A stretch of DNA of 64,000 nucleotides from IMG/VR virus record IMGVR_UViG_2636416124_000002, positions 18,123 to 82,122 of that record; one strand, 5' to 3'. This document shows, piece after piece, positions 4,816 to 60,025 of this stretch. The notes beneath the pieces are model-generated. The model worked only from the letters and a program-made list of their open reading frames with translations. It had not been told where the DNA came from and ran no database searches. A program made the translations under genes and the position numbers. The stretch comes from a virus (taxonomy: Duplodnaviria > Caudoviricetes). Positions within the stretch are counted from its first letter, which is position 1; every line of letters begins with the position of its first letter.

Positions 4816-5955
4816 TCAGAACTTCATGGATGGGTGACACCTAGGGCACGGCACCGCCGCAGGCAGCCCATCCCAGCCAGTCTCGTCCCGCCGACGGGTG
4901 ACCTCGTCACACTCGGGGTCCCCGCAGTGCTTCCACTTCTCCCACCCTGTCGGCCGCGCCCCAGTGGCAGCCTCCTCCAGGCGCCGCCACGAGTCCTGAT
5001 ACGGCCTGTGCGGGCCCGAACGCCCGGCAAGCTGCATCCACCCGTCCACGACCGCATCCGTGCCCTGCAGGGGCCTCCTGGCCGCCTCGCGGAAGGCTGC
5101 CGGGTCCGGGAGTTCATCCACGGCCAGCCGGTGCACGTACACCGCCGCAGCAGAGTTCACCGCCGCACCCCCGAGGTCGAGGTACGTCTTCAAGTCCTGC
5201 TCCATCCAGCCGGCGTCCAGGGCGGCAGCGACCAGAGCGACCAGCCGCCCCCGCTGCTTCGACCCCGGTGGACGGCCCCGGAAGTCCAGGGCGGCCACGA
5301 AGGGCTCGGCCAGCGGGTGAAGCTCGCCCGAAGGGGGAGCCACCGCTGCCCCATGCCCGGCGGAAGGCCCAGTCGTGGCTGTCCCTTCGAAGAAGGAATC
5401 GCCACCGCCTCCGCCCTCGGCTGCCGACTCCCGGGCCGCAGGGGAGGACTCCGCCGCGGGGGAGGAGGTGTTAGAGGGGGTCTTGAAAGAGGAGATAGGA
5501 GGAGTAGGGGTCACCTGAGAGATGACCCTTTCCTCACCTGTCAGGTGACCCTTTCGCTCAAGAGGGTCACCTGAGGAGTGATCCTTCTCGCGGCCGCCTT
5601 CTGAAAGGGTCACCTCCGGGGTGACCCTCTCCGGCCGGGTGCAGTGCCCCCTCCAACCGTCATGCGGAGACTCCGGGCATAGCTGTGCAAGCCTGTACAC
5701 CGCAACCTGGCCGACACGCCCCTGCGCGTGCTGAACCAGCACACCCTTCTTCAGCAGCTTGCTGATCGAGTTCTTCCAGCCCGCCGCCGACTTGTTCGCC
5801 CGATGCAGCATGTACTCCTCATGCACCGGACCCCACGTCAGCCGACTCCCATCGTTCGCGTTCTCCGCGAGCAGCAGAAGGTCGCTCCGCTCGCCCGCGG
5901 TCAACCCGGCGTCCTGCCAGTGATCCAACACCTCGACGATCAAACGCACGCCCAC
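4816..5955 (-). CDS. Replication initiator-like protein (N-terminal wHTH)
   Basis: MGVRLIVEVLDH...LLLLAENAND N-terminus typical of actinophage HTH rep proteins; iteron block in the middle of the gene; C-terminal HCGDPECDE...CPRCH. Confidence 0.75.
   Translation of the reverse strand: MGVRLIVEVLDHWQDAGLTAGERSDLLLLAENANDGSRLTWGPVHEEYMLHRANKSAAGWKNSISKLLKKGVLVQHAQGRVGQVAVYRLAQLCPESPHDGWRGHCTRPERVTPEVTLSEGGREKDHSSGDPLERKGHLTGEERVISQVTPTPPISSFKTPSNTSSPAAESSPAARESAAEGGGGGDSFFEGTATTGPSAGHGAAVAPPSGELHPLAEPFVAALDFRGRPPGSKQRGRLVALVAAALDAGWMEQDLKTYLDLGGAAVNSAAAVYVHRLAVDELPDPAAFREAARRPLQGTDAVVDGWMQLAGRSGPHRPYQDSWRRLEEAATGARPTGWEKWKHCGDPECDEVTRRRDETGWDGLPAAVPCPRCHPSMKF
5508..5627. repeat. Iteron array, probable origin of replication
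   Basis: Four 21-bp units GGGTCAC-N7-GTGACCC (some degenerate) at 5508, 5531, 5564 and 5607. Confidence 0.75.
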
Positions 5956-22004: not shown

Positions 22005-22186
22005 TCCAGCACGGACAGACCGGCACCCCCGACAGCGACGTCGTCGTCACGAAGAAGGGCCACCCGCTCTACGCGCTCACCGTGTCCAGAAACCGCATGG
22101 AGCGCTACAAACTCACCGAAGCCGACGTCAGCACCACCCGCGACGGGACGCCCCGCCGCACCGGATACGTCCTGGAGGACACATGA
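22001..22186 (+). CDS. Hypothetical protein
   Basis: ATGA-coupled small ORF. Confidence 0.55.
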   Translation: MIQHGQTGTPDSDVVVTKKGHPLYALTVSRNRMERYKLTEADVSTTRDGTPRRTGYVLEDT

Positions 22187-22249
22187 GGACCTGCCCGGTG
22201 ACGCAGAAAGGCCCCGTCCGGTAAGGTCGGGGCCAGGCGGTCATCTTCA

Positions 22250-22374
22250 GGATGGGTCCGGTTCGTCACCGGAACCGCCACTGTGCGGGAGATCCCGGTT
22301 CAAGTCCGGGCCAGTCGACTCAGTCGGCTAGTAGCTCAATGGCCAGAGCGTCCGCTCCTAACGAACCGCATCCC
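22250..22374 (+). ncRNA. Circularly permuted tRNA-like RNA (YrlA/Y-RNA-like topology)
   Basis: T arm CCCGG-TTCAAGT-CCGGG (22294-22310) precedes the D arm GCTC-AATGGCCA-GAGC (22334-22349). Acceptor-like stem 22311-22319/22323-22331 is closed by a loop. GCGGG (22285-22289) pairs with TCCGC (22351-22355). The ends pair (GGATG/CATCC and GGTTCGT/ACGAACC). Confidence 0.7.
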
Positions 22375-23229
22375 GGCCAGCCTTCAGCTCCATGGGCGTC
22401 ATGGCCAGGTCGCGGTAGTACGTCATCGCGTGCCCCTGGAGCCGCTGTACCACCCGGTCCTGTTCGGGACCACTCAATCCGTGACCGGCGGGCGCCGCGT
22501 TGAACCTTCGGCGGCTGACCGCCGTCGAGCTACGGTAGTCGCGAGCGATGGCCTCCGCCCACTGGGCGCGGGTGAGGGCACGCTGGACTCGCCCGTTGAT
22601 CTCATGAGCCGACTCCTTCGTCACCGCCAACGTTGCCATGATCTCGGGCCAACCCAGCGTCGGCGGCATGTCGACCTTCGTGTACGTGAAAGGCCGCCCT
22701 GCGAGGCTCTCCCACCGTGTCACCGCTGCGGGCGACAGCCCTTTCCACCGGTCGATCAGCTTCTTGTTGACCTTTCCGGCTCCGTGCATCATCGCGTTGC
22801 GCCACGTCAAGCAGAAGCCCAGTAGCTCGTCTGCGACGGTCTCGGCTTTGCCGAAACGCAACGTCTCATGGAGTGCTGGCACCGGCCAGCCCCCGGAGCT
22901 GACTGCTTCGTGATCAAGGGCGGGAAATGCTGGCACTCAACGATCGTGCCCACACACAGTTCGATGTGCAGTGCCATGACTTGAGGGATGGCGAGAACCG
23001 CCATGTCGGCCGCCGCCGAGCCGAAGATCTTTGTCGCGTCGGCGACCGTGACGTCGAGTCGCTCCGCCTGCGGCACCGCGTTCAGTATCGTGCTCGCCCT
23101 GATCTCGGGGTCTGGAGCCTGGTCCATATCCTGCTGGATGTGATGCGCCCCTACCGACAGGGCCAGGATGCTGTTGTTCGAGCGCTTCTGCATGGCCTGC
23201 CACGTCCGAAACGCGCTGTACTGGATCAA
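22358..23229 (-). CDS. HEPN-motif (Rx4H) all-alpha protein, about 290 aa after repairing a frameshift near 22920
   Basis: ORFs 22807..23229 and 22358..22936 join as ...CQHFPPLDHEAV... with one extra C; motif WRNAMMHG. Confidence 0.6.
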
Positions 23230-59952: not shown

Positions 59953-60025
59953 GGGCGGGTAGCTCAGTGCTAGAGCAGCCGATTCATACTCGGTACAGAC
60001 GTCGGTTCAACTCCGACCCTGCACA
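59953..60025 (+). tRNA. tRNA with CAT anticodon (elongator Met or Ile2)
   Basis: D arm GCTC/GAGC; anticodon arm GCCGA-TTCATAC-TCGGT; T arm GTCGG-TTCAACT-CCGAC; acceptor has a G2:A71 mismatch; no encoded CCA. Confidence 0.75.

What the first reader, a model, noticed from the sequence alone, without database searches (positions are those of the whole stretch)
22250..22374. Circularly permuted tRNA-like RNA (T arm before D arm, looped acceptor stem) with no Ro60 gene nearby
Seen in sequence: both tRNA halves are present in swapped order. GCGGG(22285)-AGAT leads into T arm CCCGG-TTCAAGT-CCGGG, then CCAGTCGAC, a TCA loop, GTCGGCTAG, TA, D arm GCTC-AATGGCCA-GAGC, G and TCCGC. The acceptor stem (9 pairs with one C:A mismatch and one G:U) is closed by a loop. 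The anticodon-equivalent stem continues into a helix formed by the 5' and 3' ends (GGATG..GGTTCGT with ACGAACC..CATCC). Established: this is the topology described for bacterial YrlA Y RNAs, which are normally encoded beside a Ro60/Rsr gene; permuted tRNA genes are known from red algae and some archaea. No TROVE/Ro60 gene was recognised in these 64 kb. Inference: a phage-encoded orphan tRNA mimic, possibly a decoy for tRNA-targeting defence nucleases or a ligand for host Rsr/PNPase.
Basis: partly seen in the sequence, partly recalled or inferred. Interest (0 to 1): 0.88.

Follow-up and report, generated by a model that had tools for sequence, protein, structure and literature searches.

The report
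tRNA-mimic RNA with HEPN-type partner
This roughly 125-base RNA gene does fold into a back-to-front tRNA look-alike, but it is not an orphan Y RNA: it always sits beside an undescribed HEPN-type (RNA-cutting) protein gene in Streptomyces prophages and genomic islands, which suggests an unstudied RNA-protein toxin/antitoxin-like or anti-phage pair.

Summary
The permuted tRNA-like core (T arm, looped acceptor stem, D arm, anticodon-like stem) is real. Across 18 homologs, 31 of its 38 base pairs show compensatory changes.

- The Y-RNA-like closing helix has no comparative support. The RNA starts at about 22236, behind a conserved TAnnnT promoter box, with a 5' three-way junction.
- The RNA is not an orphan. 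In 20 of 20 loci it lies tail-to-tail with a roughly 290-aa all-helical protein. That protein has a near-invariant RNxxxH motif and HEPN-like predicted structure. In this window the protein gene carries a one-base frameshift.

Rfam's YrlA model matches only the tRNA-like core (19 bits; threshold 69). No Ro60-binding motif is conserved. The 82-kb phage has no TROVE gene, and two of five carrier genomes have no TROVE match.

Best reading (about 0.5): the RNA is a tRNA-shaped ligand, most likely a pseudo-substrate inhibitor, of a new HEPN RNase family. That would be a toxin/antitoxin-like or abortive-infection module.

The scan's first-stage reader had already flagged the HEPN gene beside this RNA. 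Other agents had reported a different pair (DUF7873 with a two-headed tRNA mimic) on other DNA. I found no paper describing this HEPN-type protein/tRNA-mimic pair.

The parts
22198..22227 (+). Promoter of the RNA gene: candidate -35 GTGACG (22198-22203), an 18-nt spacer, and -10 TAAGGT (22222-22227). The RNA begins 8 nt downstream.
   Evidence: A TANNNT hexamer lies 6-13 nt upstream of the first helix in 17 of 19 loci. The background rate is 1.3%, and the hexamer's inner letters vary between loci. An E. coli-type consensus scan finds nothing. Calling it a promoter rests on cross-locus conservation and on the known Streptomyces -10 form TAnnnT (my own knowledge).
22236..22279 (+). 5' domain, a three-way junction. 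P1 is GGCGGT (22236-22241) with ACCGCC (22274-22279). P2 is CATC (22242-22245) with GATG (22251-22254). P3 is TCCGG (22257-22261) with CCGGA (22269-22273), closed by the 7-nt loop TTCGTCA.
   Evidence: RNAalifold consensus. All P1, P2 and P3 pairs show compensatory changes in the 18-sequence alignment, with 95-98% of cells paired.
22280..22284 (+). Linker ACTGT between the two domains.
   Evidence: Alignments A6 and A7.
22285..22355 (+). Circularly permuted tRNA-like domain: anticodon-like stem GCGGG/TCCGC, variable AGAT, T arm, closed 9-bp acceptor hairpin, and D arm.
   Evidence: The T-loop and D-loop tertiary partners are kept or lost together in 18 of 19 RNAs.
22356..22360 (+). 3' tail TCCTA. 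CTA (22358-22360) is the stop codon of the protein gene on the minus strand. The true 3' end of the RNA is not known.
   Evidence: In distant loci (L165, L168, L162) a terminator-like hairpin lies here between the two genes.
22358..23229 (-). Partner gene, a roughly 290-aa HEPN-type protein. In this window it is split into two overlapping frames (22810-23229 and 22361-22936) by a one-base deletion in a G run within 22886-22901. The RNAMMH motif is encoded at 22784-22801.
   Evidence: It is a single open frame of 290-297 aa in all seven close relatives compared. R145, N146 and H150 are invariant among the close Streptomyces relatives; across 45 diverse family members R145 is invariant and N146 and H150 are kept in at least 90%. 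AlphaFold2 model: pLDDT 84.8, all helical. The top structural matches are HEPN domains at Z 8-10.
22210..22234 (.). Hairpin GGCCCCG...CGGGGCC around the -10 box. On the minus strand it is followed by TTTCT. It is a possible terminator for the upstream plus-strand genes and for the minus-strand protein mRNA. It occurs only in the window subgroup (window, L068, L150).
   Evidence: Inference only.

Best explanation
Window 22236-22360 (+) is an independently transcribed small RNA gene. It has two domains: a 5' three-way junction that looks like a reduced tRNA (an acceptor-like helix, a stub hairpin and a T-arm-like hairpin), and an anticodon-less, circularly permuted tRNA-like domain. It is the RNA half of a conserved two-gene module. 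The protein half is the convergent neighbour, a roughly 290-aa HEPN-superfamily protein with an RNxxxH active-site motif. I propose that the RNA binds this RNase as a tRNA-shaped pseudo-substrate and holds it inactive, much as the RNA antitoxins of type III toxin-antitoxin systems and AbiF/RCd22 do. Loss or displacement of the RNA, for example on phage infection or loss of the element, would free the RNase to cut tRNA or other RNA. Shown here: the RNA fold, its promoter box, the strict gene linkage, and the HEPN motif and fold likeness. Inferred: RNase activity, RNA-protein binding, the direction of regulation, and a role in defence or addiction. In this window the protein gene is frameshifted while the RNA is intact, so this prophage may supply only the RNA.
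For: RNA structure: 31 of 38 pairs have compensatory changes and 94.5% of cells are paired, with controls far lower (10-sequence version).
Promoter: a TANNNT box is present in 17 of 19 loci against a 1.3% background.
Linkage: the RNA lies tail-to-tail with the protein gene in the window, L068, L149, L150 and L152-L154, in L158-L160, in L161-L164, and in L165 and L167-L170. The one apparent exception, L151, is an IS insertion at the junction, and the RNA sits on another contig of the same genome. Among 151 Streptomyces genomes, matches of 100 bits or more, or matches next to the protein gene, occur only in the four genomes that carry the protein; seven unrelated DUF7873-linked RNAs score about 50 bits, in the same range as the distant-subfamily members.
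Protein: the RNxxxH residues are invariant or nearly so. There is a weak PADLOC hit to an RT-associated HEPN model (E 0.012 and 0.021). The top 11 matches of a structure search that does not rely on Foldseek are HEPN domains (Z 8.2-10.2), with AbiA, Csm6, LsoA, HepS and RnlA HEPN domains further down. The nearest named ESM Atlas clusters are RiboL-PSP-HEPN proteins.
Context: the module lies in variable, defence-island-like or prophage cargo positions, next to SLFN_AlbA_2, AbiJ_NTD3, DEAD/ResIII and EVE/NOV_C genes. It is sporadic: 6 of 401 Streptomyces species genomes.
Precedent: a HEPN toxin neutralised by a structured RNA, AbiF with RCd22 (PMC12373285).
Against: No expression, binding or toxicity data exist.
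The HEPN assignment rests on a short motif plus Z-scores that the tool itself warns are unremarkable for helical bundles. Foldseek, Pfam, NCBIfam and a PDB sequence search all gave nothing.
The gene arrangement (single-copy RNA, convergent with the protein gene) differs from type III TA and AbiF loci, where the RNA lies upstream on the same strand.
The acceptor hairpin ranges from 0 to more than 12 bp, and five RNAs have lost the elbow contacts. The partner therefore cannot be reading a full tRNA shape in all members.
An activating or guiding role for the RNA fits the same data.
The broken protein gene in this window could be a sequencing error.
Confidence: 0.5

Rival explanations
1. The RNA is a required cofactor, sensor or guide of the HEPN protein, not its inhibitor. 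The two would form a ribonucleoprotein in which the tRNA-shaped RNA recruits tRNA-binding factors, or reports on tRNA-directed attack or modification during infection, and so switches the nuclease on.
For: The same linkage and covariation data apply. HEPN effectors that work with an RNA are known: Cas13 with crRNA, and retron-associated HEPN proteins (one search lists such papers). The strongly conserved 5' domain, with compensatory changes in every helix, suggests a second binding surface beyond simple substrate mimicry.
Against: Nothing in the sequence marks a guide segment. The single-stranded stretches are short (5-nt linker, 4-nt variable region). In this window the RNA is kept intact while the protein gene is broken, which fits a protective RNA better than a cofactor with no enzyme.
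Confidence: 0.25
2. It is an orphan YrlA-type Y RNA that works with the host's Rsr (Ro60) and PNPase.
For: The core has the permuted T arm, acceptor and D arm topology of YrlA. Three of five carrier Streptomyces genomes encode a TROVE protein. Phages with their own Ro60 and YrlA exist (PMC4201824; PMC12135203).
Against: Genuine Streptomyces YrlA RNAs next to TROVE genes match Rfam's model over its full length at 49-64 bits, and phage ones at 41-44 bits. This RNA scores 19 bits on the core only. The closing helix is unsupported. The bacterial motif GNCGAAN0-1G (PMC4201824) is absent. The GGUCCG seen in the window is not conserved among homologs (GGAUCCGG, GGGCCCGG, GGG-CCGG). Two of five carrier genomes show no TROVE match. 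The RNA is linked to the HEPN-type gene, not to rsr.
Confidence: 0.07
3. The RNA acts mainly as a cis-encoded antisense regulator. Convergent transcription across the 3' end of the protein gene controls the protein mRNA, and the tRNA-like fold only stabilises the RNA.
For: In the window subgroup the stop codon lies 3 nt beyond the RNA's last helix. The only terminator-like hairpin for the protein mRNA lies beyond the RNA gene, so that mRNA's 3' UTR would be fully complementary to the RNA.
Against: In distant members (L165, L168, L162) a hairpin terminator separates the two genes, so overlap is not a family feature. Selection clearly acts on the RNA's own helices, including G-U pairs that would be C-A mismatches on the other strand.
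Confidence: 0.08
4. The region is a decayed remnant of two tandem tRNA genes, or an attachment-site scar.
For: Most hits to a 'T loop followed by D arm' pattern in viral contigs are ordinary tandem tRNAs. A tandem duplicate of one tRNA would in principle create this topology.
Against: Compensatory changes occur in every helix except the invariant D stem, across proteins down to about 20-30% identity. The RNA also has a conserved promoter box and a fixed protein partner.
Confidence: 0.02

Closest known systems
YrlA (Y RNA-like A, Rfam RF02553), partner RNA of bacterial and phage Ro60/Rsr (Chen et al. 2014, PMC4201824; bioRxiv 10.1101/312249; phage Ro60, PMC12135203)
   Same: Both have an anticodon-less tRNA-like domain in the order T arm, looped acceptor stem, D arm, with canonical T-loop and D-loop sequences. 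Both are about 100-130 nt. Both occur in actinobacteria and their phages.
   Different: This RNA has no 5'/3' closing stem and no Rsr-binding motif; instead it has a self-contained 5' three-way junction. It is linked to a HEPN-type gene, not to rsr. It scores 19 bits against a gathering threshold of 69. It occurs in genomes with no TROVE match.
AbiF (Abi_2, HEPN) with the RNA RCd22 / abiF motif, and type III toxin-antitoxin systems such as ToxIN (PMC12373285)
   Same: A prophage- or island-borne RNase-type protein is encoded next to a structured non-coding RNA, which in those systems neutralises the protein by direct binding.
   Different: No sequence relationship was detected for either the protein or the RNA (no Abi_2 hit, no abiF-motif hit). 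The RNA here is single-copy, tRNA-shaped, has its own promoter, and is convergent with the protein gene. In those systems the RNA lies upstream, and in ToxIN it is repeated.
HEPN anticodon nucleases and HEPN toxins: PrrC, RloC, ApeA, HepS (PMC13043305), RnlA/LsoA, and the HEPN-MNT toxins
   Same: They share the Rx4-6H motif and an all-helical fold, are carried by prophages or defence islands, and target tRNA or mRNA.
   Different: Those proteins are controlled by protein partners, by nucleotides or by phage proteins. I know of none with a dedicated tRNA-mimic RNA. The present family is not detectably related in sequence to any of them.
DUF7873 with a two-headed permuted tRNA-mimic RNA
   Same: Both are Streptomyces and phage gene pairs of a protein of unknown function with an RNA built from permuted tRNA-like domains, without Ro60.
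   Different: The proteins are unrelated (hhalign probability 0.1). That RNA is 370-570 nt with two tRNA-like heads and lies downstream on the same strand, according to those notes. The covariance model built here cross-hits it only at about 50 bits.
Unannotated element in Microbacterium phages Percival and Gretchen (MH271308.1, OK040779.1)
   Same: The permuted tRNA-like core is 80% identical to the window's and shows compensatory changes. It follows another tRNA-shaped unit after a 4-nt linker, as the core here follows the 5' domain.
   Different: There the 5' unit is a complete tRNA-Lys(CUU). Those phages have no HEPN-type partner gene but do encode an RtcB-like RNA ligase.

Membership tests
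YrlA / bacterial Y RNA (RF02553) | tRNA-like domain in the order T arm, looped acceptor stem, D arm | tested here: met
YrlA / bacterial Y RNA (RF02553) | Helix formed by the 5' and 3' ends, carrying the Rsr-binding motif GNCGAAN0-1G (PMC4201824) | tested here: not met
   The closing helix pairs no better than shuffled columns. The motif is absent, and the window's GGUCCG is not conserved among homologs.
YrlA / bacterial Y RNA (RF02553) | Score at or above Rfam's gathering threshold (69 bits) | tested here: not met
   19 bits over model positions 28-81 only. True YrlA RNAs next to TROVE genes match the full model at 41-64 bits; these too fall below the threshold.
YrlA / bacterial Y RNA (RF02553) | Encoded beside an rsr (TROVE) gene | tested here: not met
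   No TROVE match in the 82-kb record or in L068's record. Two of five carrier genomes have none.
Functional tRNA, including permuted tRNA genes | Anticodon loop, and an acceptor end that can carry CCA | tested here: not met
   No anticodon loop is present. The acceptor stem is closed by a loop of 3-6 nt or more. ARAGORN calls nothing here.
Two-piece (permuted) tmRNA | Permuted tRNA-like domain with a CCA end plus a tag reading frame | tested here: not met
   ARAGORN and Rfam report no tmRNA. There is no CCA after the 3' acceptor strand.
HEPN superfamily (protein partner) | Rx4-6H motif | tested here: met
   R145, N146 and H150 are invariant in 23 Streptomyces proteins. Among 45 diverse family members R145 is invariant and N146 and H150 are kept in at least 90%.
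HEPN superfamily (protein partner) | All-helical HEPN fold | tested here: inconclusive
   The top 11 matches of the VIA-align wide search are HEPN domains (Z 8.2-10.2, 116-137 residues aligned). The tool warns that Z below about 13 is common for helical bundles, and Foldseek found nothing.
HEPN superfamily (protein partner) | Match to a curated HEPN family profile | tested here: inconclusive
   Pfam and NCBIfam gave no hit. PADLOC's RTasHEPN model matched at E 0.012 and 0.021 over 21-23 residues around the motif. The ESM Atlas neighbours are RiboL-PSP-HEPN proteins at 0.87, which is a lead only.
Type III toxin-antitoxin / AbiF-RCd22 | RNA gene upstream of the toxin gene on the same strand; RNA made of repeats or abiF motifs | tested here: not met
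   The RNA is single-copy and convergent with the protein gene. No abiF-motif match in Rfam and no Abi_2 domain.
Type III toxin-antitoxin / AbiF-RCd22 | A toxic RNase neutralised by direct binding of the RNA | not testable with these tools
   This needs expression and binding experiments.
DUF7873-associated tRNA-mimic RNA | Adjacent DUF7873 (PF25283) gene and two tandem permuted tRNA-like heads | tested here: not met
   The partner protein is unrelated. The RNA has only one permuted head.

The most novel reading that the evidence does not exclude
A tRNA-shaped small RNA is the dedicated regulator of a previously unrecognised HEPN RNase family, acting as a pseudo-substrate antitoxin or as an infection sensor. 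This would be a new class of RNA-protein defence or addiction module. Prophages that keep the RNA but have lost the nuclease, as this window may have, could use the RNA to disarm the same system in their hosts.
Probability: 0.4. Interest if true: 0.85.

Novelty: new variant of a known kind. Interest (0 to 1): 0.72.

Why it matters
Permuted, anticodon-less tRNA mimics are known only as Y RNAs that serve Ro60. Here the same RNA design is tied to a different partner, a HEPN-type putative RNase.

Many HEPN nucleases attack tRNA during phage defence. A genome-encoded tRNA mimic that travels with one would be a new way to control such an enzyme. It would also be a new use of tRNA mimicry, and a clean, small two-part system for experiments.

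Together with the DUF7873-linked RNAs found earlier in this scan, it suggests that permuted tRNA-like modules are a reusable RNA scaffold that several unrelated proteins have adopted.

Tried and rejected
- Reading the window's GGUCCG as a Ro60 site: rejected, because it is not conserved among homologs.
- Single-sequence folding gave no signal on either strand (z -1.2 on the plus strand, -2.3 on the minus strand). Strand and structure were settled by tRNA motifs, G-U pairs and covariation.
- Pfam, PHROGs, NCBIfam, a PDB sequence profile search and Foldseek against the PDB found nothing for the protein.
- An E. coli-type promoter and terminator scan found nothing.
One contig had no DNA on hand.
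- Close phage relatives found through the portal protein mostly lack the whole module; only L068 has it. It is therefore cargo, not part of the packaging region.
- RtcB is absent from this phage.
- L151 at first looked like a protein gene without the RNA. It was resolved as an IS insertion.
- Hits of about 50 bits to my model in seven further Streptomyces genomes looked like solitary copies. They are the unrelated DUF7873-linked RNAs.

Full report
**What is in the window**

In order it holds:
- GCGGG (22285-22289) and AGAT
- a T arm, CCCGG-TTCAAGT-CCGGG
- a 9-bp acceptor-like hairpin closed by TCA
- TA, then a D arm, GCTC-AATGGCCA-GAGC
- G and TCCGC (ending at 22355)

ARAGORN finds no tRNA or tmRNA here, and no Rfam family reaches its threshold. 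In a permissive scan, Rfam's YrlA model aligns only to this core (22291-22349, model positions 28-81) at 19 bits, against a gathering score of 69. Folding the single sequence is uninformative on either strand.

The window is part of an 82,122-bp IMG/VR virus record rated complete. That record has no TROVE (Ro60) gene and no RtcB gene. The neighbours are small plus-strand genes ending at 22186. On the minus strand come two overlapping open frames, then the portal and large terminase genes.

**Homologs and the true RNA**

Searching with the downstream open frame found six Streptomyces loci, and the related prophage L068 also carries the gene. Five of these six loci, plus L068, carry the element in the same place.

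The alignment shows a conserved TAnnnT box 6-13 nt upstream of a shared start, GGCG. In the window this box is TAAGGT at 22222-22227, and the RNA starts at about 22236. Over 19 loci the box is present in 17, against a background of 1.3%. I read it as a -10 element of an own promoter. An E. coli-type consensus scan does not see it.

RNAalifold folds the first 44 nt into a three-way junction (P1, P2, P3), followed by a 5-nt linker and the tRNA-like domain. On 10 sequences this structure has 93.6% of cells paired and 10 pairs with changes on both sides. A covariance model built from it recovered more distant copies. On the 18-sequence alignment:
- 94.5% of cells pair
- 31 of 38 pairs have compensatory changes
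- the covariation score is 0.50, against 0.16 for shuffles and at most 0.09 for slid partners

That alignment is fitted to the model, which inflates the numbers somewhat. The margin is still large, and every helix except the invariant D stem contributes.

**The closing helix fails**

Its 5' strand falls in P2 and in the P3 stem and loop. Its 3' strand is the last six codons of the neighbouring gene. In distant members that position holds an unrelated terminator hairpin. The RNA therefore does not have the Y-RNA closing stem.

**Evidence that the tRNA-like domain really folds like tRNA**

- All 13 RNAs with a UUC T loop keep GG in the D loop.
- The five whose T loop begins UGC (L068, L150, L170, L172) or GUC (L160) all lack GG.
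- One RNA, L159 (CUC), keeps GG.

These are the partners of the tRNA elbow (G18-U55, G19-C56; established tRNA knowledge). The joint loss happened in at least three lineages.

The acceptor hairpin, by contrast, varies from 0 bp (L167) to more than 12 bp. Whatever reads this RNA does not measure that arm.

**The partner protein**

The two overlapping minus-strand frames in the window are one gene. In all seven close relatives compared it is a single frame of 290-297 aa. The window lacks one G in a G run within 22886-22901. I cannot tell whether this is a real frameshift or a sequencing error.

- The family has 32 clusters above 50% identity, all from Streptomyces and all named hypothetical. A profile search of 1.84 billion representatives finds 244 clusters at E up to 0.001.
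- No Pfam, PHROG or NCBIfam model matches.
- The motif RNxxxH (R145, N146, H150) is invariant in the close set. In 45 diverse members R145 is invariant and N146 and H150 are kept in at least 90%.
- PADLOC gives weak hits to an RT-associated HEPN model across the motif (E 0.012 and 0.021).
- An AlphaFold2 model (pLDDT 84.8, pTM 0.81) is all helical.
- Foldseek finds nothing in the PDB.
- An exhaustive structural alignment ranks HEPN domains in its first 11 places: SO_3166 toxin at Z 10.2, then YutE, sacsin HEPN, HEPN-MNT toxins and others. HEPN domains of AbiA, Csm6, LsoA, HepS and RnlA follow.
- The nearest named ESM Atlas clusters are RiboL-PSP-HEPN proteins (0.87, a lead only).

I take the protein to be a HEPN-superfamily member, probably an RNase, with about 70% confidence.

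**Linkage of RNA and protein**

Every protein locus with enough flanking DNA has the RNA tail-to-tail with it:
- the window, L068, L149, L150 and L152-L154
- L158-L160, with proteins 52-61% identical to the L152 query
- the metagenomic L161-L164, with proteins 28-33% identical to the first reference protein of alignment A5
- L165 from another actinobacterium, and L167-L170 from a distant Streptomyces subfamily

L151 seemed to lack the RNA. The same genome, however, carries it on another contig at 132 bits. The sequences next to the RNA end and next to the stop codon are inverted copies, with CTAA duplicated. This is an IS insertion exactly at the junction.

The tally is therefore 20 of 20. The module is sporadic: 6 of 401 Streptomyces species genomes, and 2 of 401 in a phylum-wide sample that includes the query genome. 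Its neighbours differ from locus to locus and include defence-island-type genes. Close phage relatives identified through the portal protein mostly lack it.

**Comparison with YrlA**

Genuine YrlA RNAs beside TROVE genes in the host genomes match Rfam's model over its full length at 49-64 bits. Phage YrlA-like RNAs match at 41-44 bits; two of these three share a contig with a TROVE gene.

The bacterial Rsr-binding motif GNCGAAN0-1G (PMC4201824) is absent here. The vertebrate-like GGUCCG in the window is not conserved among homologs. Two of five carrier genomes show no TROVE match.

The RNA shares the design, and perhaps the ancestry, of YrlA's tRNA-like module, but it fails the tests for membership.

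**Other relatives of the design**

Microbacterium phages Percival and Gretchen carry an unannotated permuted tRNA-like core that is 80% identical to the window's. It lies 4 nt after a complete tRNA-Lys(CUU). My model aligns that tRNA's T arm onto P3, which suggests that the 5' three-way junction is a reduced tRNA. Those phages have no partner protein.

Model hits of about 50 bits in seven further Streptomyces genomes are tandem permuted tRNA-like RNAs beside DUF7873 genes. They match earlier reports of this scan. DUF7873 is unrelated to the protein here.

**How it most likely works**

HEPN domains with Rx4-6H are metal-independent RNases, and several cut tRNA in phage defence (established knowledge; HepS, PMC13043305; ApeA, bioRxiv 10.64898/2026.01.26.701840, listed). 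A HEPN toxin neutralised by direct binding of an adjacent structured RNA is documented for AbiF with RCd22 (PMC12373285).

By analogy, I propose that the tRNA-shaped RNA occupies the nuclease as an uncleavable substrate mimic. Its 'anticodon loop' is open, replaced by the linker and the 3' tail. This is inference.

The same data allow a cofactor or sensor role. A purely antisense role is unlikely, because gene overlap is not conserved. I found no paper describing such a pair in the searchable library. That library is limited, so this is not proof of novelty.

**Verdict**

'Orphan Y RNA' is not supported. What stands is a new, well-supported RNA family with a fixed HEPN-type partner.

Noticed in passing
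window 22886-22901 (minus strand): The HEPN-type gene is split by a one-base deletion in a G run, compared with all seven close relatives. It is either a real inactivation of the nuclease in this prophage or a homopolymer sequencing error.
   Followed up: partly
L151:3175 onward and L172:1370-1500 (same Streptomyces genome, two contigs): Imperfect inverted-repeat ends (TACTCCAGC.GGACTTCG...) with a CTAA duplication sit exactly between the RNA's end and the protein's stop codon. This looks like an IS element inserted at the junction of the two genes. The assembly breaks inside it.
   Followed up: partly
L001:2924-3076 and L002:2924-3076 (Microbacterium phages Percival and Gretchen): An unannotated permuted tRNA-like domain lies 4 nt after tRNA-Lys(CUU), about 1.7 kb downstream of an RtcB-like RNA ligase gene. 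There is no Ro60 gene in Percival (Gretchen was not searched for it), and neither phage has a HEPN-type partner.
   Followed up: partly
L027:2164-6272: This viral contig fragment carries about 30 tRNA genes, a tmRNA-model hit and a YrlA-like core (5637-5697). No TROVE gene lies on the 41-kb fragment.
   Followed up: no
L011:3625-4636, L065:5013-5231, L060:1796-2036: Several YrlA-like or permuted tRNA-like units lie in tandem on single viral contigs. L011 and L060 also encode TROVE proteins.
   Followed up: no
L179, L180, L182-L187 (Streptomyces genomes), around 1338-1777: Tandem permuted tRNA-like RNAs lie directly beside DUF7873 (PF25283) genes; Pfam confirmed DUF7873 in three of the eight loci (L179, L180, L184). 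This pair is distinct from the one reported here and was described earlier by other agents of this scan.
   Followed up: partly
134 of 151 Streptomyces genomes: Each genome has one hit of about 89 nt at 38-45 bits to my RNA model. It is presumably a conserved tRNA-related gene, such as a long-arm tRNA. I did not look at it.
   Followed up: no
window 22210-22234: A GC-rich hairpin encloses the RNA's -10 box. On the minus strand it is followed by TTTCT, so the protein mRNA may run antisense through the whole RNA gene before it terminates. This occurs only in the window, L068 and L150.
   Followed up: no
window 59953-60025: tRNA-Met(CAT) gene (53 bits). It may be the prophage attachment region.
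   Followed up: no
L153:670-3505 and L154:4773-7676: A pair of genes, a roughly 770-aa protein with an N-terminal HTH_3 domain and a 185-aa protein, lies next to the module in two loci but on opposite sides of it.
   Followed up: no
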